64,000 nucleotides of DNA. Origin: an uncultured bacterium (lineage in GTDB: Bacteria > Krumholzibacteriota > Krumholzibacteriia > Krumholzibacteriales > Krumholzibacteriaceae). This document shows positions 1-47,380 of this stretch, in pieces. The translations under genes were made by a program, and so were the position numbers. The notes below the pieces were generated by a model that saw only the letters and a list, made by a program, of their open reading frames with translations, searched no databases and was not told where the DNA came from. Location of the stretch: contig CAYWGA010000002.1 in assembly GCA_964457905.1 (NCBI GenBank), positions 3,475 to 67,474 on the forward strand, given 5' to 3'. How positions within the stretch are numbered: the stretch's first letter is position 1; each line of letters opens with the position of its first letter.

Positions 1-879
1 ATCGAGAACCCCAACACTGGATCGGGATCGGGAGAACAGATCGCGTTTGTCGACGAGAACGGAACAGTCGCAGGAATAAGGTTTTATGACGACACTGCGG
101 TATCCACATACGCCGGATCGATGGCGATATACAACAACAGGCCTTCAGGCTCTATACTTTTCAGGACCGGCGGCGTGGACAGGATGAAAATACTGGAATC
201 GGGTGTGCTCTCGGTAATAGGGACGGGCGGGAACGCGTCGGTCGGCCTGCCGACCGACGCTGTCTCCGCGCCGGAGATTCTCGATGAACCGGGTACAGCA
301 AGCTCGACATCCAACACCTCCACTCTTATCAGCACTACGGCGACAGTACTTCTCTCGAGGACGATCACCGTCCCGGATGACGGGTATGTCTTCGTCATCG
401 GAACCACGCAGGCCCAGATCGGGCATTCAGTCGGTACCAGCTCGACCCTGAATGTAGGGGTATCCAACAGTGCTTCCGTTCTTCCGGTCAACCAGGATGT
501 CGGCTGGCTGATACCGCCCGGCTCTTCGACAGCTACCTACACCCTGCCGATAACCGTGCAGGGACTTTTCGAGGTTTCGGCCGGCTCCAATTCCTTCTAC
601 CTGCTGGGTTTAAGCGCCACCGCAACCGCTACGATGTACGGCCTGGACAAACAGCTGACGCTCATCTATATCCCGACCAATTACGGCACCGTCATGCCGA
701 CACTGGTCTCTTCCAGTCTGGCGGACAGCGACGTGCCGACGGACAGGGGTATGAGCTCCGGGGATCTCTCGGCAGAAAGAGCGGCATCTGAAGCTGTGAA
801 CAACGACCGCATCGAGCGCGAACTCGCCGCGATGAGGGACCGGATAGCAACTCTTGAAAATGAGCTCGGCAACAAGTAG
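1..879 (+). CDS. Tail-fibre-like repeat surface protein, 5'-partial; paralog of the 874-aa protein at 1889..4513
   Basis: Frame 1 is open from base 1. The translated N-terminal segment (IENPNTGSGSGEQIAFVDENGTVAGIRFYDD...MAIYNNRPSGSILFRTGGVD) is near-identical to residues ~495-560 of the downstream 874-aa protein. The C-terminal ~200 aa are also shared and end in a heptad coiled coil (RIERELAAMRDRIATLENELGNK). Confidence 0.6.
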   Translation: MENPNTGSGSGEQIAFVDENGTVAGIRFYDDTAVSTYAGSMAIYNNRPSGSILFRTGGVDRMKILESGVLSVIGTGGNASVGLPTDAVSAPEILDEPGTASSTSNTSTLISTTATVLLSRTITVPDDGYVFVIGTTQAQIGHSVGTSSTLNVGVSNSASVLPVNQDVGWLIPPGSSTATYTLPITVQGLFEVSAGSNSFYLLGLSATATATMYGLDKQLTLIYIPTNYGTVMPTLVSSSLADSDVPTDRGMSSGDLSAERAASEAVNNDRIERELAAMRDRIATLENELGNK

Positions 880-903
880 AAACAAACTGCGGATTCGAAA
901 TAA

Positions 904-939
904 AGGGGGCGGGGCATCAGGTCCGCCCCCTTTGTGTTT
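904..939 (+). terminator. Rho-independent terminator-like hairpin (GGGGGCGG...CCGCCCCC followed by TTTGTGTTT)
   Basis: 8-bp GC stem with ~10-nt loop followed by a T-rich run, directly after the stop at 879. Confidence 0.45.
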
Positions 940-1064
940 GACCTTGCACGGGAAGTTAGATTGTGAGAATGTACGTTCGAACGGGGTAATATTCTATAAA
1001 ATTTCGGGAAGCCGCCTGACAAGCCGGCATTTTCAATTTCAGAGATCGATCACAGGAGGTCTCG

Positions 1065-1865
1065 ATGAGAGAGATGAGACGGGCACTGCTCGTACTGGTC
1101 CCCCTTATTGTGCTATGTCCGGTCGTCGCGTCGGCACAGTACATGGTGCTGCACGACGTGCAGGGAAGCGCGGGGGGAACAGCGAGCGGGAGTCACATAG
1201 TATTGTTCACTGCGGGCGAAACGCAGATCTTCTACAAGACGGGACCGGACAACACTGTCTTCCCCGGATTCTGGCAGATCGCGGGATTGTCCTCATCGGT
1301 AGAAGTCGCAATCGCGTCATTCTTCGGGGAACTGAGTCACGGAGTGGTCGAACTGACCTGGGTCGCATCCACGACAGGGTCACTCGACGGCTTCAACATC
1401 TACAGGGGTGAAGGTGAAAGCCCCGAACAATTCGAGAGACTAAACGACAAACCGTTCGGCACTTCGGGCACAAACATCTACCACGATGAGACGGCTTTGC
1501 CCGGTAAAACATACACATACCAGGTCGGAGGCTTACAGAGCGACAGGGAGTTCCTCTCCTTCACACTGACCCTCGATGTGCCCGAGATACCTCTGACCCT
1601 CTATCAGAACTATCCGAATCCGTTCAACCCTTCGACTTCGATCTCGTTCTACATACCCGGCCCCGAAAGGGTCCGCCTGGAGATCTTCGACGTTCAGGGA
1701 AGAAGGATCAGGACACTTGCCGACCGCCAGATGGAAGGCGGCAGGCATACGTTCCACTGGAACGGCATGAACGACGCCGGGAGCAATGTCTCTTCCGGGG
1801 TATATCTCTACCGCCTCGTGTGCGGCAAGAAGGTACTGACACGTAAACTCGTGATGATGAGATAG
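1065..1865 (+). CDS. Secreted FN3-like protein with type IX secretion (Por) C-terminal sorting domain
   Basis: N-terminal signal peptide (LLVLVPLIVLCPVVASAQ). C-terminal LYQNYPNPFNPSTSISFYIP...GVYLYRL motif is typical of T9SS CTD (TIGR04183-like). AGGAGG RBS 8 nt upstream. Confidence 0.6.
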   Translation: MREMRRALLVLVPLIVLCPVVASAQYMVLHDVQGSAGGTASGSHIVLFTAGETQIFYKTGPDNTVFPGFWQIAGLSSSVEVAIASFFGELSHGVVELTWVASTTGSLDGFNIYRGEGESPEQFERLNDKPFGTSGTNIYHDETALPGKTYTYQVGGLQSDREFLSFTLTLDVPEIPLTLYQNYPNPFNPSTSISFYIPGPERVRLEIFDVQGRRIRTLADRQMEGGRHTFHWNGMNDAGSNVSSGVYLYRLVCGKKVLTRKLVMMR

Positions 1866-1888
1866 AACGAGACGAAAGGAAGACGGAG

Positions 1889-4513
1889 ATGAAGACAATA
1901 CTGATAATTCTGGCAGTCATCATACTTGCCACTCTCCCCACCTCAGCACAGATCCCGCGGCTGATAAACTACCAGGGCGTACTGACGGACGACATGGGCG
2001 TTGTTGTGGCGGACGACTCGTACAGCATGACATTCAGGCTCTACGACACACCTTCCGGAGGAACACAGCTCTGGGAGGAGACGATCGCTGTCAACGTCAG
2101 CAAGGGAATCTTCAACACGACCCTCGGGCATGATGTTGTCATTACGGAGTTCTTCGACAAACCCCTCTATCTCTCGATCGAGATCGATGGAGGCGGCGAG
2201 CTTTCTCCGAGGAGGATCTTTACTGCGAACGCATACGCGTTCAGCACACGGGCGGTCTATGGAGTCAGCAATGTATTCCCGGCGGAGGGAAATGTCGGGA
2301 TCGGGATCATTAACCCGGCCCCGGAAGCGCCGCTGCACCTGTACACGAACATATCTGACAGCAATCAGCCGTCCCTGCTTATCCAGAACGTCGGCGGTCA
2401 GAGCTCTATCGATTTCAGGATGGCGCTGGTGACCGAGGCAAGGATCAGGAAGTCCGGCGGAGGGGACCTCTTCATTGGAACACTGACCGGGCAGGGCATT
2501 ACGTTCCAGCTGGGCGGTTCATACCTGCACCGCATGCTCCCCGACGGCAGTTTCGGTATAGACAATATCGCTCCGCTGGAGAAACTCGATGTCGGCGGCG
2601 CCATCAGGCTCGGCACCACGGCGAACAGCAACGCCGGAACGCTCAGATGGACCGGGTCGGATTTCGAGGGATATGACGGATCGCTCTGGCAGTCGCTGAC
2701 AAGCGGCGGCGGGAGCAGCTTGCCTACGGGCGGTTCGACAAATACTCTTCGCCACAACGGAGCGGACTGGGTCGCGGCGACAAACCTGTCCAACGACGGA
2801 ACTAACATAGGTATAAACACTGCTTCACCGTCCGTCCCCCTTCATATCGTTCAGCCTTCAGGCCAGGTCGCGCTTCGTGTCGATGGATACAACGCATCCT
2901 ACGCGTCGATCTATGTAAACGCCGCCACGGCTCCCGCCGATCCTGTGTATGGATACCTTAGAGGAAGTACGATCTACGGCTACCACTACCTTGAATCGGA
3001 CTACAGCTGGAACCTCAATCTGAATAGTGGCCTGGCCCTGCATGTGGAGCCGAACGGGTGGACCTCGTTCGGTAACGTCGGGCTTTCCGAATCTCTGAAC
3101 ATCCCCGGAGCACTGAGGCTGGGAAACACGACAGGCAACACTGCCGGCTCGATCCGCTACACCGGCACCGATTTCGAGGGATACGTCGGCGGGATGTGGA
3201 ACTCCCTGACCGCCGGAAGCCTCCCTGCTGGAACTTCCGGCCAGACTCTCCGCTATAGCGGCGGATGGATCGCCGACGGCTCCCTGTACAACAACGGCAG
3301 CTACATCGGTCTCGGAACGACCTCGCCTGATGAGAACCTACATATCTACGAAGACGTCGACGCCTGGATGGGCATCACGATCGAGAACCCGAACACGGGC
3401 TCCGGTTCGGGAGAGCAAATCACATTCATCGACGAGAATGGAACACTCGCGGGAATCCGTCTTTACGACGACCTGTTCGCCGGCGCCTATGCCGGAGCGA
3501 TGGCGATATATAACAACAGGCCTTCCGGCTCCCTCCTGTTCAGGACAGGCGGAGTAAATCAGATGAGGATAACGGATTCGGGGGAGCTCGAGACCTATGG
3601 CACAACGGGTAACAGGTCATTGTACGGCTGGAACAACCCGGTCGGGGGCAACTTCGCAGTCTACAATGAAACAGGCTCCTACACAACGGTCAGCCTCGAG
3701 GGCGACGGCAGCGGTGAAGGCGGATTCATCTGGGTGAGGAGAGATAACACTAACGCCGGATTTACCGTCGACGGCAATCACAATGGAACCAGGGACACAA
3801 AAGTAGGGATCTACGGAGCTCTCAGATCGGCCGAGTTCAACATGAATGAATCGGGAGACGATTCGGTCGACCTGCCCTCAAGCTCGGTATCAGCGTCTGA
3901 GATACTCGACGAGCCAGGGATCGCAAGCGCGACGGAAGGCACGTCAGCCGTGCTCATTCTGGTGACTCCGACTACCATCAACTTTCGTTCGTTTGATGCT
4001 CCGGCGGCCGGATACGCCCTTGTCATCGCCTCAGGGCAGGGACAGATGATTCATACGAACGGAGCCACATCGTATATAAACTTCGGCGTATCCGACGATT
4101 CCGGGTCACTACCCGGCAACCAGGATATAGCGTGGCAGATCGACCAGGCGGGCGCGACGGGAACGTATTCGACACCGGTGACGGTCCATGGCCTGTTTGA
4201 GGTCACGGCCGGCGTGAACACCTTCTATTTCCTTGGTACTAAAGGAGCAGCGAACGGAAACTCGTACTGCTTCGATGTACAGTTCACCGTCATGTTCATC
4301 CCGACATCGTACGGCACCGTAGTTCCGACGCTGGCTGGAGGCATGGACATCCCCGACACTGAAGCGCCTCTCTCCAGCAGGTCCACTGCGGATGTCTCGA
4401 GCGAACGAGCGGCCTCCATAGAGGCGAACAACACCCGTATTGAAGCGGAGCTGTCCAGGATGCAGGCGCAGATCGAAAAGCTCCAGGCCGAGCTGGATAA
4501 TCCAAACCGGTAG
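1889..4513 (+). CDS. Large secreted tail-fibre-like repeat protein (874 aa) with C-terminal coiled coil
   Basis: Signal peptide MKTILIILAVIILATLPTSAQ. Recurring motifs NVGIGIINPAPEAPLHLY / NIGINTASPSVPLHIV / YIGLGTTSPDENLHIY and GTLRWTGSDFEGYDGSLWQSLT / GSIRYTGTDFEGYVGGMWNSLT. C-terminal heptad coiled coil RIEAELSRMQAQIEKLQAELD. Confidence 0.6.
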   Translation: MKTILIILAVIILATLPTSAQIPRLINYQGVLTDDMGVVVADDSYSMTFRLYDTPSGGTQLWEETIAVNVSKGIFNTTLGHDVVITEFFDKPLYLSIEIDGGGELSPRRIFTANAYAFSTRAVYGVSNVFPAEGNVGIGIINPAPEAPLHLYTNISDSNQPSLLIQNVGGQSSIDFRMALVTEARIRKSGGGDLFIGTLTGQGITFQLGGSYLHRMLPDGSFGIDNIAPLEKLDVGGAIRLGTTANSNAGTLRWTGSDFEGYDGSLWQSLTSGGGSSLPTGGSTNTLRHNGADWVAATNLSNDGTNIGINTASPSVPLHIVQPSGQVALRVDGYNASYASIYVNAATAPADPVYGYLRGSTIYGYHYLESDYSWNLNLNSGLALHVEPNGWTSFGNVGLSESLNIPGALRLGNTTGNTAGSIRYTGTDFEGYVGGMWNSLTAGSLPAGTSGQTLRYSGGWIADGSLYNNGSYIGLGTTSPDENLHIYEDVDAWMGITIENPNTGSGSGEQITFIDENGTLAGIRLYDDLFAGAYAGAMAIYNNRPSGSLLFRTGGVNQMRITDSGELETYGTTGNRSLYGWNNPVGGNFAVYNETGSYTTVSLEGDGSGEGGFIWVRRDNTNAGFTVDGNHNGTRDTKVGIYGALRSAEFNMNESGDDSVDLPSSSVSASEILDEPGIASATEGTSAVLILVTPTTINFRSFDAPAAGYALVIASGQGQMIHTNGATSYINFGVSDDSGSLPGNQDIAWQIDQAGATGTYSTPVTVHGLFEVTAGVNTFYFLGTKGAANGNSYCFDVQFTVMFIPTSYGTVVPTLAGGMDIPDTEAPLSSRSTADVSSERAASIEANNTRIEAELSRMQAQIEKLQAELDNPNR

Positions 4514-4547: not shown

Positions 4548-4584
4548 AAAAAAAGGGCGGGCCGTATGGCCCGCCCTTCTGTCT
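4548..4584. terminator. Bidirectional rho-independent terminator (AAAAAAA-GGGCGGGCC-GTAT-GGCCCGCCC-TTCTGTCT)
   Basis: Perfect 9-bp GC stem with 4-nt loop. A-run on one side and T-rich run on the other. Sits between convergent genes (1889..4513 + and gdhA 4606..5946 -). Confidence 0.6.
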
Positions 4585-4605: not shown

Positions 4606-5973
<1,368 letters not shown>

Positions 5974-16464: not shown

Positions 16465-18291
16465 ATGAAACTCAGGACCGGCATATACACTTTCGTGATC
16501 CTTTTCCTCCTGACAGGAACGGCCGCGGGCCAGTTCACAAAGGAGATACCGGACACGATTTCGTCTTCAAGCAACGAGAAGATGGATTCGCTGCAGAGCC
16601 AGGTCGCGAGAAACTCACTCGGCAAGCTTCTTAACGACTATGTATTTGTAACGAGGATGGATACGGCAAGCGTCGGCCGTGGAGCGGAAAAGAGTGAGGA
16701 TCCATTCGTTCCGTTCGTAGGCCGGTTCATCCGCCATGTCGAGATATACAGGTTCAACATCTTCAGTGACATCGAAGCCACAACGGACAATTCCGATTCC
16801 CCGGGATTTGTCAGGGCGCTCGAGTGGATCCATGTCGATACAAGGATCAACAAGATCGCCGGGTTCCTCCTCTTCGAGGAAGGCGATCCCGTCGATCCGT
16901 ACGCCTTGTCTGACTCGGAACGCCTACTCAGGGAGACCTCGTTTATTCAGGATGCACGAGTCAATATCATCCCCGTTGAGGGGAGCCCCGACTCGGTCGA
17001 CGTCCGGGTCCTGACAAGGGATGTCTGGTCGATAGGCGCAAGCTACACCTGGATCACCGAGGACCGGCACAGGGTCAAGTTTTACGAGAGAAACCTGGGT
17101 GGATACGGTCAGACCATCCAGTGGGAAGGTTCGCTCGACTTCAGCAGGACGAGGTACATCGACCATAGTCTCTACTACGGCGCTCCAAATATATATGGAA
17201 CATTCATCGACGGGTCGGCGAGGTGGGTCGACGCTGTTGCCTACAGGTACAACGAATGGGCACTCAGGCGAGGATATGTCTCACCTGAGATCAAATGGAT
17301 AGGCGCAGTATCGATAGAAGGAATGGACGACGTCGACGAGAATCCAGGGAAGATAAAGAAATGGGACCGCGAGGATTTCTGGATCGGCCGGTCCATCCGC
17401 ATCGGCAAGGGTTATACCGAAGAGGGAAGCAGAAGGAGGGTGATCCCGGCCATCAGGGTCCAGAGGACGGACTATCATGTGCGTCCCACAGTCAGCGCTG
17501 ACCTGAACCGCAGTTATCATGACAGGGTGTTGTATCTTGCCAGCCTTTCGTTTACCGAACGCTCTTTCCGGAAGATGAGGATGGTCTTCAGCTTCGGAAG
17601 GACGGAGGATATACCTTACGGGGCACTCGCCACAGTCACAGGTGGAACGAGTGATTCCGAGTTCTACAACAGGCCTTATCTCTCATTCGACCTCGCATAT
17701 TCCAGTTTCGTTGGAAGTTCGGGGTACCTTGCCGCGAGGGGAGCCCTTGGCAGCTACAAGAGGAACGGCCGGACCGAGGACGGGACACTTTCCCTGAACT
17801 TCGGCGGTTTTACCAGCCTGCTGCCCGCCTGGCGCGCGATGGCGAGGCATTTCTTTGTCATAGACTACATCTACGGGTATAACAGGCTCCCGAACAACGA
17901 TGTCGCTCTGGAATGGCCGAGAGGGGAACTGAGGGGGCTGTCCAACACGGGTGTCGAGGGCCATCAGCGGCTTACGATCAGCTGGGAGGGCATCCTCTTC
18001 GCCGACTGGGACTGGTACGGGTTCAGGTTCGCCTCGTTCGGATATGCTGAAGCTGGACAGTGCGGCCCGAACTGGGACTCGTTCCTCGACGCGAAGTATT
18101 ACTTCAGCCTCGGCGGCGGATTCAGGGTGCATAACGAAAGGCTGATCTTCGACGCCTACGAGGTGCGGTTCATGTACCATCCTGTCGTACCCGAAGGAGC
18201 GGACACGCAGGTTTTCAGGTTTGAGGCGGTCAAAAACCTCAGGATCCCCTTCCTCTCCCCCGGCGCTCCGAGGGTCCTCAAGTACGAATAA
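16465..18291 (+). CDS. Hypothetical secreted protein (608 aa)
   Basis: Signal peptide MKLRTGIYTFVILFLLTGTAAGQ. No recognisable catalytic motifs. Confidence 0.4.
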   Translation: MKLRTGIYTFVILFLLTGTAAGQFTKEIPDTISSSSNEKMDSLQSQVARNSLGKLLNDYVFVTRMDTASVGRGAEKSEDPFVPFVGRFIRHVEIYRFNIFSDIEATTDNSDSPGFVRALEWIHVDTRINKIAGFLLFEEGDPVDPYALSDSERLLRETSFIQDARVNIIPVEGSPDSVDVRVLTRDVWSIGASYTWITEDRHRVKFYERNLGGYGQTIQWEGSLDFSRTRYIDHSLYYGAPNIYGTFIDGSARWVDAVAYRYNEWALRRGYVSPEIKWIGAVSIEGMDDVDENPGKIKKWDREDFWIGRSIRIGKGYTEEGSRRRVIPAIRVQRTDYHVRPTVSADLNRSYHDRVLYLASLSFTERSFRKMRMVFSFGRTEDIPYGALATVTGGTSDSEFYNRPYLSFDLAYSSFVGSSGYLAARGALGSYKRNGRTEDGTLSLNFGGFTSLLPAWRAMARHFFVIDYIYGYNRLPNNDVALEWPRGELRGLSNTGVEGHQRLTISWEGILFADWDWYGFRFASFGYAEAGQCGPNWDSFLDAKYYFSLGGGFRVHNERLIFDAYEVRFMYHPVVPEGADTQVFRFEAVKNLRIPFLSPGAPRVLKYE

Positions 18292-21494: not shown

Positions 21495-22343
21495 ATGACC
21501 GAGTGCTTTTTTGTCTCAGATCTTCACGGCAAGACCAACCGGTACGAAAAGTTGTTCGGTGCGATCAGCAGGGAAAAGCCGGCGGCGGTATTCATCGGCG
21601 GAGATATACTTCCCTCAATCGGATCTACTGCGCCCTTTCACGATTTTCTGTCCGATTTTCTTTACGCAGGCCTGGACCGTCTTCGCTCTTCATTGGGCGA
21701 TAGCTACCCCGCGATCTTCATCATACCGGGCAATGACGACTACCACTCCATAGTGGAAGAGATTGATGCCCTCGCCGATACGGGTCTCCTGTTCAGTATG
21801 CATGGCAGGGTGGAACCTTTCGGCTTATGGAAGATATTCGGATATTCATTTACTCCACCCAGTCCATTCATGCTGAAGGACTGGGAGAAGTACGACGTCT
21901 CCCGCTTCACCGACCCGGGCTGTGTCTCTCCCGAGGAAGGCCGCTATACATTCGAAATCCCGGACTCGGAGAAACGCTACGCGACGATCGCCGCCGATCT
22001 CGAGTCACTTGCCGGCTCTGAGGATCTGGAGAGTGCCGTTTTCCTTTTCCATGCCCCTCCATACAAGACAAATCTGGACCGAGCCGATCTCGACGGCAGG
22101 TATGTCGACAGCATCCCGATGGATGTCAACGTAGGAAGCATAGCGATACGCAGGTTCATCGAGGAGCGTCAGCCCCTCTTGACGCTTCATGGGCATATAC
22201 ATGAATCGGCAAGATTAACGGGAGAATGGAAAGACACAATAGGCGAAACGGTGATGTTCTCGGGAGCCCATGACGGACCGGAACTCGCGCTGGTCAGGTT
22301 CAGGCTGGAAAATCCGGGGAAGGCAGAAAGAGAACTCCTCTAG
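21495..22343 (+). CDS. Calcineurin-like metallophosphoesterase
   Basis: FFVSDLHGK...AVFIGGDILP...IIPGNDD...LTLHGHIHE matches phosphoesterase motifs I-V. Start trimmed to the first ATG after the glnS stop. Confidence 0.6.
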   Translation: MTECFFVSDLHGKTNRYEKLFGAISREKPAAVFIGGDILPSIGSTAPFHDFLSDFLYAGLDRLRSSLGDSYPAIFIIPGNDDYHSIVEEIDALADTGLLFSMHGRVEPFGLWKIFGYSFTPPSPFMLKDWEKYDVSRFTDPGCVSPEEGRYTFEIPDSEKRYATIAADLESLAGSEDLESAVFLFHAPPYKTNLDRADLDGRYVDSIPMDVNVGSIAIRRFIEERQPLLTLHGHIHESARLTGEWKDTIGETVMFSGAHDGPELALVRFRLENPGKAERELL

Positions 22344-25300
22344 CCTTCGCCCGGATCTTTCAGCTTCAAGGGACGGGCGGGGTCCGTCACTGCGCCTATT
22401 TTTACCGCATAACTTGTCTTGTTCTCAATATCCTCATCTGTCACAACGTGTACATCGAGCAGCCCCCCGGAGCGATATCCGGTCCGGTTATAGTTGATCT
22501 CGTCGAGACACAGGCTCCACGCTTCAAGCCAGGTCATCAGATCATTACGCTGATCCTGTGTTCCGCGGAAGTGGACGAGAAGGTCGATATCGCTGGCTAG
22601 CCCGGCAGTTGCGTTCTTCGTGCTTCCAAAGACGTAGAAACCAACTACTCCGAAACGTTCGGGATCGAGTCGGGAGGCGATGTGCTCAGCCATCCTCAGG
22701 CGCCACATCCAGAGATGGTCGGTCGGTTTTTTTGCCTCTGCCTCCATCTCGGTGATCTCTTCCCTGTCCTCTGTCGGATCGGCAAGGATACCAAGTGCCT
22801 CACCCAGATCGGCGTTCATCAGTACCCTCAGGACCCTGCCCTTTGTCGCTTTGGGCACATCGATCAGTTTTATCGTATCGGCCAGCCCGGCATACTCGGG
22901 AAGCACGTCGGGAAGAAGATTTTTCGAGATTGAAAAGAACCTGTCGTTGAAAACGGTTCCCTCATCATCGGGATACAGCGGAAGGTATCTTATCTGTCCT
23001 TCCACGAGATCCTGGAAAAAATGTGTCCCAAACGAAAGATCCGGCTTATAGCCACCTTTGCTGCGTGCGATCTCCATCAGGACCGCTGTATTGTTGATGT
23101 CGGAATATGTCACGCTCACACCGAGTCGTATATCGCCCCTGCTCCCCCATCTGCCCGGTCCCATGAGTACGAACTGGCGCTTGGGCAGGATCTTGTTCAG
23201 CCGGCTGACTGCCCGTCCTACCTCCAGAAGTTCCTCACGGGAGGATATTTCGCCGTATTTCACCGGGTCCACGTATACCACGTGCGTGATATCCGGCACG
23301 CGCCCGTTGGATACATACCTGTCCGCTGAAAATACGATATCCTTCTCGGAGACATCCTTGGGGATGGGAGACGGCGCGATATCTTCCGAATAGCTCTGGG
23401 GCCTGCACTGGAGAAGATAGAAATCGTTGCCGTCATGAGCGAATTCGATGTCGACGGGATTACCGATAGTCTCTTCCAGGGTCTCAAGGATCGCCCGTAC
23501 TTTCCTTACGAATGGCGTATCGCTCAGGAGCCCCTCACACGTCATCAACAGGTCGTCCTTTTCGAAATCGATGCTCATCGGCATCGGCTTGTGCATATGA
23601 CCACCCTTATTGACCAGTACCATCTTTTCAATATTCGGATAGTCGTCGCCATGTGTCCTGAGCAGTTCGCTGATCTCGACCGTTTCGAATGTATTGCTCC
23701 GGAGGTTGATCACATCGATCATCTTCGGGGAATAATGCGCGATCTCTTCGGGAGCCACGTTGACGCGAAGACCGGGTTGTCCCGGCGCCACCAGGATGGG
23801 ATAATCGTCGCTTACCCTGTCGACTGCCCGCGTGCCAAGGCCCGGGACGAGCCTTATCAATCCGTCCTCCCTCTTTATCCTGGGAGACCACCTGAATTCG
23901 TTTCTGCTGAACGCCACCCCGGCGAATGCCGGCAGGAAGTAATCACCCATCCTCGTCCCGATGACCTCCTGGATGAGAATTCCCATCTCCTCGGCAAAAT
24001 CGAGGAGCCCCCTCTCAGCCCTGTATTCGATCGGATCCGGCCCGAAGGAGGAGGCATAGACCTCGGCGATGGCATCCATGAGGGCCTCGAGACACTCCCG
24101 CTTGGATCCCTGGTTGGCAAGAAACAGGCTTTTGTATTTACCGGAAAAAGACGCACCGAGGCTGTCCTCAAGCAGGCTCGAGCTACGGATGATAAGCGGC
24201 TTCCCCTCGCATTCATCGAGGACCATGGACAGCCCCTGAACGACCTCAGGAGGGAACCGTCCATTTTTGAACGATCTTATGACATTCGGATATTCGACTC
24301 TGACCTGATTGATGCTCTTGTACTTTTGCTCCACGACTTCATCCATGTTGTTATACTTCAGGAATCCAAGCAGGATGTCGGAAGTCATGTACCAGCTGTT
24401 GGGGACCTTGATGCTTGAAAGCTCCTCGTCTTCCGCGAAACTTTTTCTGATTATCTGTTTCGCCATGACCAGGCCGGCGCATTTACCCCCGAGCCGTCCA
24501 TGGCTTCCAGTCATATAGATCGTCTTGTCGAGAAACTCGAAGAAATCCGCGATCTCAAAATAATTCTTGGCGATGTTTATATAGTCGAGCTGCGAAGAGA
24601 GGAATCTTCTGACCAGAGATACTATGACTCCGAGCTTGGCGCTCGGAGAGAGATCTATGTTCTCGGAGACCGCATCCCTGTACTGCCTCAACGCTGCAAT
24701 CACATCGGGAAGAGTAAGGTTCCTGTTAGCGATATGTATCAGGTATTTCAGCCTGTCATCCTGGATCCATTTCTGCAGGTATGCATATATCTGGTCACCG
24801 GTGAACTGACTTGTAGCAATCCGGAATATCTCGAAACTCATATCTTCCGTCAGCCTGAGATTACCACTTCTCATCGGCCGGTTCTCGTCCTCCTGGCCCC
24901 TCGCTCCATTCTCATAATAATCCGGCACTATCTTCTGCTGCAGTTTTTCAGCGGCTGAGACACCTTCCCAGCACAGATGATTGAGCATCCTCTCGGTCAC
25001 ATTGTAATAAAGGTCCTTGTCTGTGAACCGCAGAAGGTTCAGGATGACTTTCCAGTCTTCCTTGCCGGAACTGTCCGCCGGCTCGCCCGATAATCCGGCC
25101 TTCACCTTCATATCATCCTGCTGGAGAAGACTGCCGATCCTATCGGCGATGGTCGAAAGCAGCTTTTTCTCCTGCCTCAGAAAGGGACCATCGTCCGCTT
25201 CCGGCATCTCTCGGCTGTAGAAGACAGACAGCTTCCCGGCCTGTCTCTTGCCGACAATGATATCCGCGCTCTGCATCCATGAGGTTTCGGTGAATCCATA

Positions 25301-25519
25301 TTCGCTGTAACTGTCAGGTCCCAGTTCGATTCTCACGCGGCAGTATTTTGGATACTGCCATCCGGACGGAATCGCTGAGACAATCTTCATGCACGTATCC
25401 CCGATATTCCCCTCATGATCCCTTACGATCTCCTCGATGCGGTACAGGCACTCAAGTTCCTTCTCTCTTTCAACAAAGAAACGCATGAGATCATCCGGAT
25501 TATCTTTTTGGTCATGCAT
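22340..25519 (-). CDS. Multidomain protein: N-terminal unknown region, PEP/pyruvate-binding (PPDK_N, ATP-grasp-like) domain, C-terminal Pol-beta-type nucleotidyltransferase
   Basis: RLGGKCAGLVMAKQII and IIRSSSLLEDSLGASFSGKYKSLF are PPDK_N hallmarks. C-terminus FYVFGSTKNATAGLASDIDLLVHF is the G[SG]x9-13Dh[DE]h minimal NTase motif. Its 5' end overlaps the upstream paralog by 8 nt. Confidence 0.6.
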   Translation of the reverse strand: MHDQKDNPDDLMRFFVEREKELECLYRIEEIVRDHEGNIGDTCMKIVSAIPSGWQYPKYCRVRIELGPDSYSEYGFTETSWMQSADIIVGKRQAGKLSVFYSREMPEADDGPFLRQEKKLLSTIADRIGSLLQQDDMKVKAGLSGEPADSSGKEDWKVILNLLRFTDKDLYYNVTERMLNHLCWEGVSAAEKLQQKIVPDYYENGARGQEDENRPMRSGNLRLTEDMSFEIFRIATSQFTGDQIYAYLQKWIQDDRLKYLIHIANRNLTLPDVIAALRQYRDAVSENIDLSPSAKLGVIVSLVRRFLSSQLDYINIAKNYFEIADFFEFLDKTIYMTGSHGRLGGKCAGLVMAKQIIRKSFAEDEELSSIKVPNSWYMTSDILLGFLKYNNMDEVVEQKYKSINQVRVEYPNVIRSFKNGRFPPEVVQGLSMVLDECEGKPLIIRSSSLLEDSLGASFSGKYKSLFLANQGSKRECLEALMDAIAEVYASSFGPDPIEYRAERGLLDFAEEMGILIQEVIGTRMGDYFLPAFAGVAFSRNEFRWSPRIKREDGLIRLVPGLGTRAVDRVSDDYPILVAPGQPGLRVNVAPEEIAHYSPKMIDVINLRSNTFETVEISELLRTHGDDYPNIEKMVLVNKGGHMHKPMPMSIDFEKDDLLMTCEGLLSDTPFVRKVRAILETLEETIGNPVDIEFAHDGNDFYLLQCRPQSYSEDIAPSPIPKDVSEKDIVFSADRYVSNGRVPDITHVVYVDPVKYGEISSREELLEVGRAVSRLNKILPKRQFVLMGPGRWGSRGDIRLGVSVTYSDINNTAVLMEIARSKGGYKPDLSFGTHFFQDLVEGQIRYLPLYPDDEGTVFNDRFFSISKNLLPDVLPEYAGLADTIKLIDVPKATKGRVLRVLMNADLGEALGILADPTEDREEITEMEAEAKKPTDHLWMWRLRMAEHIASRLDPERFGVVGFYVFGSTKNATAGLASDIDLLVHFRGTQDQRNDLMTWLEAWSLCLDEINYNRTGYRSGGLLDVHVVTDEDIENKTSYAVKIGAVTDPARPLKLKDPGEG

Positions 25520-27269
25520 GGAGGATCACCCCCCGGCCGCTCTTTCCGTCGACCTTTACAGTCAGCGGACTGTCGAGTCTGATATGCCGGACATGTTTTG
25601 TCTCGAAACAGGATTCTTTGGTTTTCAGCCATTTCCAGTCTATCGAACGATCGTCGTCATGTCGCATGGAAAAATAGAAGACCTTGAAGCTGGTCAGGTT
25701 GTGGAAGAAATGCGAACCCTGGCTCATCATGTACCCGAAGTTGGAAAGAGAGATCTCCACTATAACCTTCGCTCCGGATATCTGGCCGAAATCGACTGGG
25801 ATCCCGCCCATCTGGTCCGTCGTCCCCCAGCGTCCGAAGCCTACCAGAATGTATTTCCTGCCCTCTCCGACCAGCCTTTCGTTTATCGTCTCTATTTCAG
25901 AAGCGATCTCCCGGGACCTCATTATGTCGAATGTGTCGGGATCGATATATACCAGGTCGGAGATCGAATCATCGGCCCCGTTTCCCAGAACCGTGGTAGA
26001 AGAGATCAGCACTCCCGGATCGTCAAGCTCCTCCTCCGCAACGGTCACTTCAGACTTCGAAACGACCATCGGACGGGCCTGAAGAAATCCGAAATCGGCA
26101 GGTTCACCGAGCGTGCTTCCAAGTCTCATCGCGAACTCGATCTCCACCTTCGCTCCGAGCCGTTCCTCGCATTCCCTCATGACTGTCTTGAGGAGCTCGC
26201 TGAAATGGAAATCCCTGCCTCGAAGGATCGGCGAGAAATCAATGACCCTCGGCCCGTCACGAAAGATTCCGCTCTCGAGACGGTCATCCCTGTGATTATA
26301 TGTCGAGGCGATCAGGCCAAGGGACCCGTCATACTCGCAGTCCTTCAAATCGAATCGATCAAGGTACTCCATCTCTTCAACAGGACTGTATGTATGCAGC
26401 TTCCCCATATTCACTGCCCAGAACCCGGTCTGAGTATGCTTGAGCATATCACCGGTCGACTTGAACGGAGGACCGACAGCGGGCCATTCGGGCGAAAAGG
26501 CCCATGAGATCCCGTCATCGACAATCGTCCTCCCGAGACCGAGTGCCAGCTCGACTACCCCCTCCTCCGGTTCTGCCCTGCCGAAAGGATAAAAATTGAA
26601 CGATCTCATCACGCCTGATACGTGAGGGTAATACCTGTCCCCGAATCTCGTGCCGATGATATCCTGAATTATCACAGCCATCTTTTCATCCTCGATCGAA
26701 TGGCTCACGACCTTCATGTAGTCCCCTGCAGACTTGAAGAATGTAGAGGCATAGATGAATTTTACCGCCTCGGCCAGCTTCTGAAATCTGGAATCCGTAT
26801 CGGGAAGATTGTTGGGGACCATCTTTGTCGCGTAGACACTGGCGAAAGGCTCGAACATGGCATCCTCCAGCAGGCTCGAGGACCTTACCGCCAGAGGTGT
26901 GTGGACCTGCTGCGCGATAGCTCTCAGATCGCCGGCAAGCCCGACAGGAAGGGAAGCTCGCAGAAAAGCGTGGGCCTTGATCTCATCGCGCCTGTCGGAG
27001 AGCGCGATATCGTAGAGGTCGTTCTCCCGCATGAAGAGATCGAAAAACTCCGTTGTAATAACGGTCAGCCTTGGAATAGCGACCGATATAGCCGGTTCGA
27101 ACAGAGGCTTTACCTTATTTCCCAGCGCTTCACCCATCTTCGCCAATCCGTGAGCCTTGCCACCCAACTCACCGGAACCGATGAAAGTAAACCGCTCTTT
27201 CCCGGTAAAGAACTCCCGTTCGAACCGGCTGACAGTAAATTCATCCCTTATGCCGGATTCTTCAGACAA
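25512..27269 (-). CDS. PEP/pyruvate-binding (PPDK_N) domain protein, paralog of 22340..25519 without NTase
   Basis: ELGGKAHGLAKMGEAL and VRSSSLLEDAMFEPFASVYATKMVPN motifs. Shares the post-PPDK_N module (ILVGFGRWGTTD vs VLMGPGRWGSRGD) with the neighbour. Apparent TTG start 6 nt after the gdh stop. Confidence 0.55.
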   Translation of the reverse strand: MSEESGIRDEFTVSRFEREFFTGKERFTFIGSGELGGKAHGLAKMGEALGNKVKPLFEPAISVAIPRLTVITTEFFDLFMRENDLYDIALSDRRDEIKAHAFLRASLPVGLAGDLRAIAQQVHTPLAVRSSSLLEDAMFEPFASVYATKMVPNNLPDTDSRFQKLAEAVKFIYASTFFKSAGDYMKVVSHSIEDEKMAVIIQDIIGTRFGDRYYPHVSGVMRSFNFYPFGRAEPEEGVVELALGLGRTIVDDGISWAFSPEWPAVGPPFKSTGDMLKHTQTGFWAVNMGKLHTYSPVEEMEYLDRFDLKDCEYDGSLGLIASTYNHRDDRLESGIFRDGPRVIDFSPILRGRDFHFSELLKTVMRECEERLGAKVEIEFAMRLGSTLGEPADFGFLQARPMVVSKSEVTVAEEELDDPGVLISSTTVLGNGADDSISDLVYIDPDTFDIMRSREIASEIETINERLVGEGRKYILVGFGRWGTTDQMGGIPVDFGQISGAKVIVEISLSNFGYMMSQGSHFFHNLTSFKVFYFSMRHDDDRSIDWKWLKTKESCFETKHVRHIRLDSPLTVKVDGKSGRGVILHA

Positions 27270-27275
27270 CCGTTA

Positions 27276-28562
27276 TCACACCCATCCCCGGTCCTTGCAT
27301 GCCTGGGCCACACGGCCTACAGCGATGACGTAGGCGGCATCCCTCATGTAGATCTTCTTCTTCGCCGCGAGTGTGCTTACTGCCTCGAAGGCCGACGTCA
27401 TCTTCGAATCAAGCTTTCCGAGGACCTCATCCTTTTCCCAGAAGTAGTTCATGTTACACTGCACCTGCTCGAAGTAGCTGCAGGTCACCCCGCCGGCGTT
27501 CGCCAGAAGGTCGGGGATCATGAAAATCCCTCTTTCGTGGATGGTCTTATCGGCCTCGGGGGTGGTAGGGCCGTTCGCGCCCTCAGCGATGATCTTCACC
27601 GAGTCACTGATCAGGCTGACGTTCTCCTTCGTGATCTGGTTCTCGAGCGCGGCCGGGATTAGTATGTCGACCTCCTGCTCAAGCCAGGCACCGCCATCGA
27701 GGGCCTCATACCCGAGCTTTTCCGCTTTATCCTTCTGGATCCCACCGAAACGGTCGGTTATCCCCCTGAGGACTTCGAGGTCGACACCGTCTGATTTCCT
27801 GAAGCTGTACGACTTCTGTTCCTTCTGGTCCCAGCAGGATACGCAGATGACCTTTCCGCCTAGTTGCTGGTAAAGCTCGATCGCGTGCTGAGCCACATTG
27901 CCGAATCCCTGGACGCTTGCCTTCGTCTTCGAGGGCGGTATGCCGAGCTCCTTCAGCGCTTCCCGGACAGTGAATATCACTCCATATCCGGTCGCTTCGG
28001 TGCGTCCGAGTGAGCCGCCCATACCTACAGGCTTGCCCGTGATGAAACCGGGGAGCCTCTCGCCCCTGAGCATCTCGAACTCGTCGAGCATCCACAGCAT
28101 ATGCTGAGGATTGGTCATGACGTCCGGTGCCGGCACGTCGTTGACAGGTCCCATGTCTCTTGACAACTGCCTGACCCACCCCCGGCAGATCTGCTCCTGC
28201 TCGCGGGCGCTGAGGTTATGGGGATCGCAGATGACGCCGCCCTTGGAGCCTCCCAGTGGAATATCTACTACTGAGGTCTTCCAGGTCATCCACATCGAGA
28301 GCGCCCGGACCGTATCGATCGTCTCCATCGGGTGGAACCTTATCCCACCCTTGGCGGGCCCCCTGGCATCGTTGTGCTGGACCCTGAAACCGCGGAACAC
28401 CCTGGAGCTTCCATCATCCATGACGACAGGGATGCTCACATGATATTCCCGCATGTTGGTGCGAAGAAGTTCCCTGGTCCCCTCATCAAGGTCCAGAACA
28501 TCCGCCACATTGTCGAACTGCTCCTGCGCCATCTCGAAGGCGTTATACGAACGGTCCGCCAT
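27276..28562 (-). CDS. gdh: Glutamate dehydrogenase (~420-aa Thermotoga/Pyrococcus-type family)
   Basis: GGIRFHP...DIPLGGSKGGVICDP active-site motif. C-terminal Rossmann domain. AAGGAGG RBS. Confidence 0.85.
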   Translation of the reverse strand: MADRSYNAFEMAQEQFDNVADVLDLDEGTRELLRTNMREYHVSIPVVMDDGSSRVFRGFRVQHNDARGPAKGGIRFHPMETIDTVRALSMWMTWKTSVVDIPLGGSKGGVICDPHNLSAREQEQICRGWVRQLSRDMGPVNDVPAPDVMTNPQHMLWMLDEFEMLRGERLPGFITGKPVGMGGSLGRTEATGYGVIFTVREALKELGIPPSKTKASVQGFGNVAQHAIELYQQLGGKVICVSCWDQKEQKSYSFRKSDGVDLEVLRGITDRFGGIQKDKAEKLGYEALDGGAWLEQEVDILIPAALENQITKENVSLISDSVKIIAEGANGPTTPEADKTIHERGIFMIPDLLANAGGVTCSYFEQVQCNMNYFWEKDEVLGKLDSKMTSAFEAVSTLAAKKKIYMRDAAYVIAVGRVAQACKDRGWV

Positions 28563-46286: not shown

Positions 46287-47380
46287 TTATTCGAGCCGGC
46301 CCGGCTCTGGGTGTGTGCCTGCAGAGGCCCATACTCTCAAGATGTCAAATGCCTGGCCGGTTATCCCCGGTGTGAAATTACAGTGTCCGTCCGCCTCCGC
46401 ATACATCTGCACAAACCATTTCCCGTTCTCCAGCGCACCGGTAATAGTATTGTATACATCGGGCAGAGTTGGCGGAACGCCCGGATCATAAGTCGTATGA
46501 AGGGCAAGTACCGGTCTTCCGGGATTACCGGTAGGCGTGTAGTTGCCGCGAAGATAATAGAGGGCGCCGGCGTCGGCGTCATATCGCGGCACGGCGGAGT
46601 TCATGTCGACAGATGCGATGATATCGGAATAGACCTTGTTGCGGTTCCCGATCGGGTTCCCGCCGGCCCTTTCGACCAGCTCACTGTAGATCATATGATA
46701 GCTGGAGATGATCGCCGCCAGATTCTCCCTTCTGATCCCGCGGCTTGCCGCATAAACGGCCGCCATATCAGGCTTGGAATTCAGCGCGGCCTCTATATCC
46801 TGAGCCTTGAACGCGGCCGACCCGATTACCGGCACCGAACCTTCCGGCAGTCCCTCGCCGAACAGCGCTTCAAATGTAACGAGCATATCGAATATGTAAT
46901 CTCCGAAAAAATGCAGGGCCGGAGCCAGCGGGCCGCACATGGGTAGCGCCCCGTTGTATGAGTCGGAATACGTCTCTATCGTGGCAAGGGTGATGAGCCC
47001 ACCCATCGAATGCCCCGCCACGAATGTCGAATCAGGCTTCCCGTGTAGTTCCGTGAAACGTTTTCGCACTGCCTCGGTCTCGACGACAGCCTCCTCCAGA
47101 GCCCATCCCTGTTTCGAATACCCCGACTCGGCCACGGCAAATCCCCGGTCGAGAAATACCGACGCTATCGAATAGTGCAGCGGGTTCCAGTTCGCGCCAT
47201 TCGGCTTATACCCGTGCGCGTACATGACCAGGTTGCCGTTCCACTCGGCGGGAATACGGATACTGTAAGGCGCCCCGTCTATCTCGCCCTTTTCGCTGAC
47301 GATCTTGCCGTCCTGGGCGGAAACGGCTGACGCGGAAACCATCAAAGCAACAACGAGGATGATACAACCGAAACGGTTCA
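46287..47380 (-). CDS. Secreted alpha/beta-hydrolase (esterase/lipase-type)
   Basis: Nucleophile elbow VAGHSMGG. Signal peptide. Start trimmed to MNRFGCIIL, which has an AGGAGG RBS. Confidence 0.65.

What the first reader, a model, noticed from the sequence alone, without database searches (positions are those of the whole stretch)
1..4513. Tandem giant tail-fibre-like surface proteins with a near-identical internal segment, flanking a T9SS-sorted FN3 protein
Two large secreted proteins share tail-fibre-style motifs (N[IV]GIG..P...LH[IV], G[ST][IL]R[WY]TG[ST]DFEGY) and a conserved ~200-aa C-terminal module ending in a coiled coil. This resembles phage tail-fibre or endosialidase intramolecular-chaperone modules found in FCB-group surface proteins. 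Window positions 1-190 and 3364-3555 are ~80% identical at nucleotide level, which indicates recent duplication or gene conversion and a substrate for recombinational variation. A T9SS-CTD protein sits between them. Together they look like a cell-surface adhesin or S-layer-like fibre locus.
Basis: partly seen in the sequence, partly recalled or inferred. Interest (0 to 1): 0.6.

Follow-up and report, generated by a model that had tools for sequence, protein, structure and literature searches.

The report
Surface fibre genes with T9SS partners
The locus is two tandem copies of a two-gene unit from an uncultured Krumholzibacteriota-type bacterium, each unit encoding a small surface-sorted protein followed by a long phage-tail-fibre-like adhesin related to the Bdellovibrio 'MAT' fibres, and the small protein is a candidate for the fibre's unknown surface anchor.

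Summary
ORF1 (window 1-879, cut at the window edge) and ORF3 (1889-4513) are paralogous secreted fibre proteins. ORF2 (1065-1865) is an FN3 protein with a type-A T9SS sorting domain.

The interpretation needs correcting in four places:
- **No S74 chaperone.** There is no Peptidase_S74 or intramolecular-chaperone module. The shared C-terminal module is a predicted TNF/C1q-like jelly-roll head followed by a conserved heptad helix.
- **MAT relatives.** The stalk is homologous by sequence to crystal structures of Bdellovibrio MAT fibres. The N-terminal domain matches the MAT N-domain model only weakly.
- **The repeated segment.** It is 75% identical, in register at 3380 rather than 3364. It has no exact match of 15 nt or more, and its synonymous sites are close to saturated. 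It is a constrained stalk segment, not a recent conversion tract.
- **The real unit.** The unit is a two-gene cassette, T9SS partner then fibre, duplicated in tandem; the first partner gene lies just upstream of the window. The homogenised tract covers the partner gene and the fibre's N-domain (window 1052-2289, including 200 nt of exact identity), while the tips are old and divergent.

A partner homologue sits directly upstream of 28 of 38 related fibre genes. Its N-terminal segment co-varies with the fibre's N-domain. I read this as a new variant of a known kind, of moderate interest.

The parts
1..879 (+). 3' part of fibre gene A (ORF1). It encodes aa 497-788 of the 788-aa protein P0122; the gene starts 1488 nt upstream of the window.
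   Evidence: Frame-1 translation. L085 is identical to the window over 2144 nt and holds the whole gene at L085 7449-9815. P0122 sequence.
256..678 (+). Fibre A predicted TNF/C1q-like head. Coordinates are approximate, placed by alignment to ORF3 aa 665-805.
   Evidence: 47% identity to the ORF3 C-terminal module. Fold assignment comes from the ORF3 model.
757..870 (+). Fibre A C-terminal heptad helix.
   Evidence: Aligned to ORF3 833-870. Family-wide heptad conservation.
895..943 (+). GC-rich hairpin followed by a U-tract. Likely the intrinsic terminator of cassette A.
   Evidence: RNA fold -30.5 kcal/mol, z -5.1, 0 of 200 shuffles as stable. Sequence. The simple scan missed it.
1052..2289 (+). 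Tract homogenised with the upstream cassette A. It covers the ribosome-binding site, the whole partner gene and the fibre N-domain.
   Evidence: Partner genes are 80-96% nt identical by 40-codon block. Exact matches are 57 nt (1052-1108), 113 nt (1579-1691) and 200 nt (2090-2289). Four-fold-site identity is 0.64-1.00 here against 0.25-0.40 beyond aa 281.
1065..1865 (+). Partner gene B (ORF2, 266 aa). It has a signal peptide (aa 1-24), a conserved N-segment, an FN3-like domain and a type-A T9SS C-terminal domain.
1137..1304 (+). Partner N-segment (aa 25-80). It is conserved (invariant G68 F69 W70 S77) but has pLDDT below 50 in the monomer model. Proposed contact site for the fibre N-domain.
   Evidence: Alignment A4. 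Model. Co-variation with the fibre N-domain: r 0.56, Mantel p 3e-4.
1311..1580 (+). Partner FN3-like domain (aa 83-172).
   Evidence: pLDDT roughly 77-93 by 10-residue block. Foldseek matches to tandem FN3 structures. Precomputed Pfam fn3 in some homologues.
1611..1862 (+). Partner T9SS type-A C-terminal sorting domain (aa 183-266).
   Evidence: TIGR04183 E 2.4e-10, 40.3 bits against cut-off 23. Pfam Por_Secre_tail / FlgD_ig.
1889..4513 (+). Fibre gene B (ORF3, 874 aa). It starts 23 nt after the partner gene, behind an AAGGA-type ribosome-binding site.
1949..2263 (+). Fibre N-terminal beta-rich domain (aa 21-125), similar to the first half of the Bdellovibrio MAT N-domain model.
   Evidence: NF053851 E 1.3e-4 for ORF3. 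53 of 60 relatives hit it, best E 3.2e-10. pLDDT 82-93 over most of the domain (aa 31-110).
2291..3358 (+). Stalk, built from two copies of a ~170-aa module (third loop motif at aa 472). Capping-loop-like motifs lie at 2291-2338, 2804-2845 and 3302-3346. RWTGxDFEGY motifs lie at 2636-2674 and 3146-3184.
   Evidence: Motif positions. Module copy number varies among relatives. Profile hits to MAT crystal structures fall in these modules. MAT capping-loop consensus is from PMC10769870.
3380..3622 (+). Stalk segment (aa 498-578) matching window 1-243.
   Evidence: 72% aa identity. 74.7% nt identity over the first 190 nt. Four-fold-site identity 0.42-0.50.
3623..3853 (+). Beta-rich neck module (aa 579-655), present in ORF3 and most relatives but absent from ORF1.
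   Evidence: Gap in the pairwise alignment. pLDDT about 90. Present in the family consensus.
3854..4303 (+). Tip (aa 656-805). It opens with the conserved EILDEPG motif and continues as a predicted TNF/C1q-like jelly roll.
   Evidence: pLDDT 82-93 over the strand core (aa 681-800). Foldseek: BC2L-C N-domain 2WQ4 TMt 0.63-0.69, PLTL 9IB7, BxpB 8D02, EDA-A1, Sf6 knob, Pgp3 C-domain.
4385..4498 (+). C-terminal heptad helix (aa 833-870).
   Evidence: DSSP helix 833-870. Conserved a/d hydrophobic positions, with R850 and E854 invariant.
4553..4578 (.). GC-rich hairpin between the convergent fibre B and gdhA genes. Likely a bidirectional terminator.
   Evidence: RNA fold -27 kcal/mol, z -6.0. Sequence.

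Best explanation
ORF1 and ORF3 are Sec-exported fibre adhesins, presumably trimeric, of the same broad kind as the Bdellovibrio mosaic adhesive trimer (MAT) fibres.

Each fibre has these parts in order:
- a conserved N-terminal beta-rich base domain;
- a beta-helical stalk built from a variable number of ~170-aa modules with capping-loop motifs;
- a neck;
- a TNF/C1q-like jelly-roll head that would bind the ligand;
- a C-terminal heptad helix that probably helps register the three chains.

Each fibre gene is co-transcribed with a small upstream partner gene. The partner has a signal peptide, a conserved ~55-aa N-segment, an FN3 domain and a type-A T9SS sorting domain. The T9SS would export the partner and attach it to the outer surface.

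I infer that the partner's N-segment binds the fibre's base domain. The partner would then serve as the fibre's surface anchor, and possibly as its carrier across the outer membrane.

The cassette is duplicated in tandem. The partner and base domain are kept nearly identical by gene conversion or recent duplication. The tips are anciently divergent, which gives the cell two binding specificities on a common mount.

**Shown:** paralogy, domain order, stalk homology to MAT structures, the T9SS sorting domain, cassette conservation, and the mosaic pattern of divergence.
**Inferred:** trimer state, surface location, partner-fibre contact, and ligand binding.
For: **Stalk and fold**
- The family profile hits Bd2133 (8OND, E 2.6e-15), 8OJN/8ONB/8ONC (2.6e-10), 8OML (1.8e-7), 8ON4 and 8OL4/8ONF, always in the G.VGIGT..P...LHV modules.
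- The top Foldseek PDB hit of the model is also 8OND.
- The motif matches the published MAT capping-loop consensus.

**N-domain**
- NF053851 Bdello_MAT_N is hit by 53 of 60 relatives, best E 3.2e-10.
- Relatives from Saccharibacteria, Moraniibacteriota, Chitinivibrionia, Ignavibacteriales and Micavibrio also hit it.

**Tip**
- TNF-like lectins and C1q-like heads match with TMt 0.55-0.70 and probability 1.00.
- Phage 'C1q domain containing' fibre proteins are among the viral matches.

**Mosaic tips on the same base and stalk**
- An S74 motif (SDERLK) in Moraniibacteriota locus L082 and RCC1 repeats in L058.

**Cassette**
- A partner gene lies directly upstream of the fibre gene in an orthologous locus that has only one cassette.
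- There are two separate cassettes in GCA_034520215.1.
- Of 38 fibre genes that have this tip and at least 900 nt of upstream sequence, 28 have a full-length partner homologue 23-153 nt upstream on the same strand.
- Strong hairpins follow each fibre gene, and none separates partner from fibre.

**Divergence pattern**
- Partners A and B are 92% identical and fibre aa 51-150 are 94-98% identical, but the tips are 40-48% identical.
- Synonymous sites agree with this, as do the exact tracts of 200 and 113 nt.
- The same base-conserved, tip-divergent gradient is seen in paralogue pairs of three other genomes.

**Partner-fibre link**
- The partner N-segment is conserved yet does not fold in the monomer model.
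- Its pairwise divergence tracks the fibre N-domain (Spearman 0.56, Mantel p 3e-4; 0.44 among distant pairs). The partner's sorting domain, which lies closer on the DNA, does not (0.20; -0.02 among distant pairs).

**Context**
- The surroundings are chromosomal housekeeping genes with no phage genes.
Against: - All MAT_N hits are below NCBI's curated cut-off (20-40 bits against 60) and cover only profile positions 3-77 of 162.
- The models are monomers with pTM 0.32. Trimerisation, the position of the C-terminal helix relative to the head, and any partner-fibre complex were never modelled.
- The tip has no sequence-level match to any solved TNF-like domain.
- 10 of the 38 fibre genes lack a full-length partner upstream, although some are second fibres in partner-fibre-fibre arrays.
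- The same fibre architecture exists in lineages and loci without this partner: Bdellovibrio per PMC10769870, the CPR loci, and L088. So the partner cannot be a universal requirement.
- The mirror-tree correlation uses non-independent pairs and only 30 cassettes.
- T9SS core genes were not seen in the window, and the rest of the genome could not be searched.
- One literature search found no precedent for CTD-less proteins riding on a T9SS substrate.
Confidence: 0.6

Rival explanations
1. The fibre and partner are merely co-expressed, and the partner is not the anchor. The fibre would reach the surface and attach by another route, as it must in Bdellovibrio. The partner would be an independent small surface protein, or an accessory factor such as a periplasmic assembly factor or spacer.
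For: The same N-domain, stalk and tip architecture occurs without any partner gene in other phyla. 10 of 38 related fibre genes have no full-length partner upstream. No structural model of a complex exists.
Against: The pairing is tight and conserved, with a 23-153 nt gap on the same strand. The partner is more conserved than the fibre between orthologous loci: 83-85% against 53-73%. The partner N-segment co-varies specifically with the fibre N-domain. Partner and base domain are homogenised together between the tandem cassettes.
Confidence: 0.25
2. The genes are phage or prophage tail fibres, or belong to a tailocin or other phage-derived particle, rather than being cellular adhesins.
For: The best matches in the viral structure library are phage tail-fibre-like proteins, at E 8e-16 to 1e-7. 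Lambda gpJ, the Sf6 knob and other phage tail parts are among the PDB matches.
Against: Both proteins have Sec signal peptides. No PHROG family matches. The neighbours are Fur, gdhA, nrdD, glycogen phosphorylase and SurA, in conserved synteny across species. There are several copies per genome, each paired with a T9SS-sorted gene.
Confidence: 0.05
3. The conserved C-terminal module would be a Peptidase_S74-type intramolecular chaperone that is cleaved off after trimerisation, as in endosialidases.
For: S74 tips do occur on the same base and stalk in other lineages (L082; the Bdellovibrio S74 MATs). A C-terminal helical element could in principle nucleate trimerisation.
Against: No PF13884 hit in ORF1, ORF3 or 60 relatives. 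No SDxxxK in ORF1 or ORF3, and only 2 of 90 relatives have the pattern by chance. No S74 structure is hit by the family profile. The module is predicted to be beta-rich jelly roll plus a single helix.
Confidence: 0.03
4. The fibres form a structural surface layer or sheath, like an S-layer, rather than acting as ligand-binding adhesins.
For: There are many paralogues per genome, and the family is abundant, with 1372 clusters carrying the tip module. BxpB/ExsF-type C1q-like exosporium proteins are among the fold matches.
Against: Tips diverge fast on conserved bases, which is typical of recognition modules. The closest fold matches are trimeric lectins. Nothing was found that suggests lattice formation.
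Confidence: 0.07

Closest known systems
Bdellovibrio bacteriovorus MAT (mosaic adhesive trimer) fibres, non-S74 class (Bd2133, Bd2439, Bd2734; Caulton et al. 2024, PMC10769870)
   Same: Both have a signal peptide, a conserved beta-rich N-domain, a long beta stalk with VGIGT..P...L capping-loop motifs, and an exchangeable C-terminal tip. Stalk homology is detectable by sequence (E 2.6e-15). Two MATs also have TNF-like tips. Paralogues share N-termini and differ in tips.
   Different: The N-domain scores below the curated MAT_N cut-off and matches only the first half of that profile. The tip is a different sequence family, followed by a conserved heptad helix. The host is an FCB-group Krumholzibacteriota-type bacterium. 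Each fibre gene has a conserved T9SS-sorted partner gene, and no such partner is mentioned in the passages of the MAT paper that I read.
Phage tail fibres and tailspikes with C1q/TNF-like heads or S74 chaperones (T5 pb1, K1F endosialidase, Sf6 needle knob)
   Same: Both are elongated, presumably trimeric, beta-rich fibres with a distal recognition domain. They match at fold level.
   Different: The proteins here are cellular and Sec-exported, have no virion gene context, and have no S74 domain.
Trimeric TNF-like bacterial lectins (Burkholderia BC2L-C N-domain, Photorhabdus PLTL) and C1q-like BclA/BxpB/ExsF
   Same: They are the best fold matches for the ~140-aa head, with TMt 0.55-0.70.
   Different: There is no detectable sequence similarity. 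Ligand and oligomeric state are untested. Here the head sits at the end of a long stalk and is followed by a helix.
T9SS type-A cargo proteins anchored by PorU/PorV/PorZ (for example P. gingivalis gingipains)
   Same: ORF2 has a signal peptide and a C-terminal type-A sorting domain above the TIGR04183 cut-off. In the family alignment a Gln follows the predicted signal peptide in nearly all members.
   Different: ORF2 is a ~160-aa mature FN3 protein with no enzymatic domain. It is dedicated by gene order to a fibre that lacks a sorting domain.

Membership tests
MAT superfamily (Caulton et al. 2024) | [quoted passage not shown] | tested here: inconclusive
   NF053851 Bdello_MAT_N scores 21.8 bits for ORF3, 24.5 for ORF1, and E down to 3.2e-10 in 53 of 60 relatives. 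All are below the 60-bit cut-off and cover only profile positions 3-77 of 162. The model shows a confident beta domain at aa 26-111.
MAT superfamily (Caulton et al. 2024) | Beta-helical stalk with capping-loop motif V-G-G/N-pi-x-x-P-x-x-x-L | tested here: met
   There are three motif copies in ORF3. The family profile hits five sets of MAT crystal-structure sequences in these modules, with E from 2.6e-15 to 1.9e-4. The top Foldseek PDB hit is 8OND.
MAT superfamily (Caulton et al. 2024) | Intertwined homotrimer | not testable with these tools
   Only monomer prediction was available. The trimer is inferred from stalk homology, the TNF-like head and the heptad helix.
MAT superfamily (Caulton et al. 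2024) | Exchangeable C-terminal tip (S74 or another adhesive fold) on a conserved N-terminal part | tested here: met
   The tips of ORF1 and ORF3 are 40-48% identical against 94-98% in the N-domain. The same gradient appears in other genomes. S74 and RCC1 tips occur on the same base in other phyla.
MAT superfamily (Caulton et al. 2024) | Location on the cell surface and binding of a target-cell epitope | not testable with these tools
   This needs an experiment.
Peptidase_S74 intramolecular chaperone | Match to the Pfam Peptidase_S74 model | tested here: not met
   No hit at E up to 1 for ORF1 or ORF3, and none in 60 relatives at E up to 0.01.
Peptidase_S74 intramolecular chaperone | Catalytic SDxxxK motif at the cleavage site | tested here: not met
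   The regex finds none in ORF1 or ORF3, and only 2 of 90 relatives carry the pattern.
T9SS type-A cargo (ORF2) | C-terminal type-A sorting domain above the curated threshold | tested here: met
   TIGR04183 scores 40.3 bits against a cut-off of 23. Pfam PF18962 scores 24.8 against 27, slightly below, and FlgD_ig 39.1 against 27. The model has pLDDT 88-95 over most of the domain (aa 191-260).
T9SS type-A cargo (ORF2) | N-terminal Sec signal peptide | tested here: inconclusive
   Read directly from the sequence (MREMRRALLVLVPLIVLCPVVASA|Q) and conserved in the alignment. No signal-peptide predictor was available.
T9SS type-A cargo (ORF2) | T9SS machinery (SprA/Sov, PorK/L/M/N, PorU/V) encoded in the genome | not testable with these tools
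   None was found among the 20 large window ORFs scanned. The rest of the genome is not available. Another T9SS-CTD protein, a 2451-aa S8 peptidase, lies just upstream.
TNF/C1q-like jelly-roll heads | Ten-strand jelly-roll fold | tested here: met
   Foldseek on the predicted model: 2WQ4 TMt 0.63-0.69, 9IB7 0.63-0.66, 8D02 0.57, 1RJ7 0.55, all at probability 1.00. This rests on a predicted structure, not a solved one.
TNF/C1q-like jelly-roll heads | Assembly into a trimer, with ligand sites at or between subunits | not tested
   No multimer prediction was possible.

The most novel reading that the evidence does not exclude
The small T9SS-sorted FN3 protein is the long-sought kind of surface receptor for the MAT-type N-terminal base domain. 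Its conserved, intrinsically unfolded N-segment would fold onto the fibre base. The fibre has no sorting domain of its own, so it would cross the outer membrane as a passenger on its partner through the T9SS. That would be a 'hitchhiker' mode of type IX secretion.
Probability: 0.3. Interest if true: 0.7.

Novelty: new variant of a known kind. Interest (0 to 1): 0.5.

Why it matters
The 2024 MAT paper states that the surface element bound by the fibre's N-terminal domain is unidentified. This locus, and about 30 like it, couple a MAT-like fibre gene to a dedicated surface-sorted partner whose N-segment co-varies with that domain. That gives a concrete and testable candidate for how such fibres are mounted, at least in FCB-group bacteria.

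The work also shows three broader points:
- The base-stalk-tip design extends well beyond predators, into Krumholzibacteriota, CPR bacteria and others.
- There is a large unannotated tip family: 1372 clusters at 50% identity, with no Pfam model.
- Tandem cassettes keep their mounts identical while their recognition heads diverge.

None of this overturns current ideas, and the organisms are uncultured.

Tried and rejected
- **Family scans of the fibres.** Pfam, PHROGs and a single-sequence PDB search gave nothing useful.
- **Fetching the window's own contig.** An exact look-up of ORF3 failed. The look-up of ORF2 succeeded and supplied the upstream cassette.
- **Terminators.** The consensus scan missed both hairpins because of loop and tail rules. 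Folding the segments showed them.
- **Shorter relatives from other phyla.** Their context was uninformative (L086: no real gene upstream) or lacked a partner (L088).
- **Literature.** The CASP16 paper that matched MAT-related search terms concerns another Bdellovibrio protein. A search for T9SS piggyback or hitchhiker precedents found nothing relevant. A search on Krumholzibacteriota plus type IX secretion found no paper linking them.
- **Rejected: prophage origin**.
- **Rejected: S74 chaperone**.
- **Kammerer R-h-x-x-h-E trimerisation motif.** I considered it for the C-terminal helix. By my own reading of the register it does not fit.

Full report
**What is in the sequence**

Three genes lie on the + strand. 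ORF1 runs off the window start and stops at 879. ORF2 is 1065-1865 (266 aa). ORF3 is 1889-4513 (874 aa).

ORF1 and ORF3 are paralogues. They share 72% identity over 81 aa (ORF3 aa 498-578). ORF3 then has a 77-aa segment that ORF1 lacks. After that they share 47% identity over the last 217 aa.

It scores 74.7% ungapped identity against a background of 25.4% +/- 3.6%. It is in register at 3380, not 3364, and it is not 'near-identical'. No exact match of 15 nt or more links window 1-879 to ORF3.

The two quoted motifs are present in ORF3, at aa 135/306/472 and at aa 250/420. They are absent from the part of ORF1 that lies inside the window.

**The missing upstream half**

An exact look-up of ORF2 returned a 13-kb contig, L085, that is identical to the window over their 2144-nt overlap. 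It shows the following, upstream of window position 1:
- the rest of ORF1, which is a 788-aa protein (P0122) with its own signal peptide, N-domain and both motifs;
- in front of ORF1, a second 266-aa gene that is 92% identical to ORF2.

The locus is therefore two tandem copies of a two-gene cassette, partner then fibre. It is not two fibres flanking a T9SS gene.

Each cassette ends in a strong GC-rich hairpin, at window 895-943 and 4553-4578 (z -5.1 and -6.0). Only 23 nt separate partner from fibre.

**What the fibre is**

Pfam and PHROGs do not recognise it. The database holds hundreds of relatives, all 'hypothetical'. They come mostly from Krumholzibacteriota and Latescibacteria-type MAGs, with several copies per genome.

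Relatives differ in the number of ~170-aa stalk modules.

A profile of 90 relatives hits, by sequence, the crystal-structure chains of Bdellovibrio MAT fibres:
- 8OND (Bd2133), E 2.6e-15;
- 8OJN/8ONB/8ONC, E 2.6e-10;
- 8OML, E 1.8e-7;
- 8ON4 and 8OL4/8ONF, weaker.

It hits nothing else of note. The matches lie in the G.VGIGT..P...LHV modules. These correspond to the published MAT capping-loop consensus.

NCBI's Bdello_MAT_N model is hit by ORF3, by ORF1, by 53 of 60 relatives and by more distant relatives from five other lineages. Every hit is below the curated cut-off and covers only the first half of the profile.

The AlphaFold model has mean pLDDT 74. It shows:
- a confident N-terminal beta domain;
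- an all-beta stalk;
- a confident region at aa 560-805;
- a helix at aa 833-870.

Foldseek against the PDB puts Bd2133 first. Trimeric TNF-like lectins and C1q-like heads follow, with TMt 0.55-0.70. Against viral models the best matches are phage tail-fibre-like proteins, including C1q-domain ones.

The helix has fully conserved hydrophobic positions in 3-4 spacing, with R850 and E854 invariant.

There is no S74 domain. No Pfam hit appears in 60 relatives. There is no SDxxxK motif. No S74 structure is among the profile hits.

The tip-plus-helix module is a large unannotated family. It has 1372 cluster representatives at E <= 1e-3. In the 150 best-scoring proteins listed, it sits at or near the C-terminus of proteins up to about 1400 aa (some listed entries are short fragments). 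Many of those from other phyla begin with the same 'FTYQGxL' N-domain signature.

**What the partner is**

ORF2 has four parts:
- a signal peptide;
- a conserved N-segment (invariant GFW), which the monomer model leaves unfolded (pLDDT below 50);
- a confident FN3-like domain;
- a type-A T9SS sorting domain, TIGR04183 at 40.3 bits against a cut-off of 23.

More than 100 homologues have an almost constant length of 262-270 aa.

**The link between them**

In an orthologous locus of another species the same pair sits between Fur and gdhA, with no second cassette. Another genome has two separate cassettes 5 kb apart.

I counted 38 related fibre genes that carry this tip and have at least 900 nt of upstream sequence. 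Of these, 28 have a full-length partner homologue 23-153 nt upstream on the same strand. Four more have a gene that is similar only in the sorting domain.

Loci from CPR bacteria, Micavibrio and Saprospiraceae share the base and stalk but have no partner.

The partner is more conserved than the fibre between orthologous loci: 83-85% against 53-73%.

Across 30 cassettes I compared pairwise identity matrices for each region:

| Region pair | Spearman r, all pairs | Spearman r, distant pairs |
|---|---|---|
| Partner N-segment vs fibre N-domain | 0.56 (Mantel p 3e-4) | 0.44 |
| Partner sorting domain vs fibre N-domain | 0.20 | -0.02 |

The partner's sorting domain lies closer to the fibre gene on the DNA, yet correlates much less. 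This is suggestive, not proof. The pairs are not independent and the sample is small.

**Divergence pattern of the two cassettes**

Identity runs as follows:
- 92% in the partner;
- 94-98% in fibre aa 51-150;
- 40-84% along the stalk;
- 40-48% in the tip.

Synonymous sites tell the same story:
- Four-fold-site identity is 0.64-1.00 in the partner gene and 0.88-1.00 in fibre aa 41-120.
- It falls to about 0.25-0.40 from aa 281 onward, which is close to saturation.

Exact tracts of 200 nt (window 2090-2289), 113 nt (1579-1691) and 57 nt (1052-1108) link the cassettes.

So the mount is homogenised, by gene conversion or by recent duplication followed by tip replacement. The heads are old. Paralogue pairs in three other genomes show the same gradient.

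**Mechanism proposed**

Shown:
- the domain order;
- stalk homology to MAT fibres;
- the T9SS sorting domain;
- operon-like pairing;
- mosaic divergence.

Inferred:
- the fibre is a homotrimer with a TNF-like head as the binding tip;
- the C-terminal helix helps register the chains;
- the partner is exported by the T9SS and attached to the surface;
- the partner's N-segment binds the fibre base.

Because the fibre has no sorting domain, it may also cross the outer membrane in complex with the partner. I found no precedent for that in one literature search.

The partner cannot be a universal requirement, because the same fibre design exists without it elsewhere.

**Context**

The window is otherwise housekeeping: gdhA, a response regulator, nrdD, glycogen phosphorylase, SurA, GlnRS and RND efflux genes. 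It has no phage genes and no T9SS core genes.

**Verdict**

The locus is a new variant of a known kind: MAT-like chimeric fibres. Its added feature is a dedicated T9SS-sorted partner. Interest is moderate.

Noticed in passing
L085 1-5290 (minus strand), about 3.6 kb upstream of window position 1: A 2451-aa protein (cut by the locus end) with Peptidase_S8, carboxypeptidase-regulatory-like and MAM-like domains and a T9SS sorting domain. A 248-aa GEVED-domain protein lies next to it. The neighbourhood is rich in T9SS cargo.
   Followed up: no
window 1137-1139 (ORF2 Q25) and 1949-1951 (ORF3 Q21): Both mature proteins would start with Gln right after the predicted signal-peptide cleavage site. This Gln is nearly invariant in both families. 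From my own knowledge, Gln in this position is typical of exported proteins in T9SS-bearing Bacteroidota, where it is cyclised to pyroglutamate.
   Followed up: partly
L058, L061, L082, L083 (loci from Moraniibacteriota, Saccharibacteria and Micavibrio): Epibiotic or predatory lineages carry the same N-domain and RWTGxDFEGY stalk, but with quite different tips. The 2343-aa L058 protein has RCC1-like repeats. The L082 protein ends in an S74 motif (SDERLKTNI).
   Followed up: partly
L018 and L023: Other genomes have fibre-partner-fibre and partner-fibre-fibre arrays, so one partner gene may serve two fibre genes.
   Followed up: partly
window 3623-3853: A 77-aa beta-rich neck module with pLDDT about 90 is present in ORF3 and in the family consensus but is cleanly absent from ORF1 and its orthologues. 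It behaves as an optional module.
   Followed up: partly
window 4606-5946 (-) and 27276-28562 (-): Two glutamate-dehydrogenase-family genes lie in one window. The first converges on the fibre gene and shares the hairpin at 4553-4578 with it.
   Followed up: no
window 22340-27269 (-): Two adjacent large genes (1059 and 585 aa) both carry a PPDK_N (PEP-utilising, ATP-binding) domain. The larger also has a weak nucleotidyltransferase match.
   Followed up: no
window 16465-18291 (+), 35083-36144 (+), 44309-45535 (+), 46287-47432 (-): Four sizeable ORFs (608, 353, 408 and 381 aa) have no Pfam match at E <= 1e-5. The 408-aa one directly follows two AcrB-type RND pump genes.
   Followed up: no
window 1137-1304 (ORF2 aa 25-80): The partner's N-segment motif (GGG..S.S..VY.T.GQ..IG...G.....GFW) has no Pfam or NCBIfam model, despite more than 100 full-length homologues.
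   Followed up: partly
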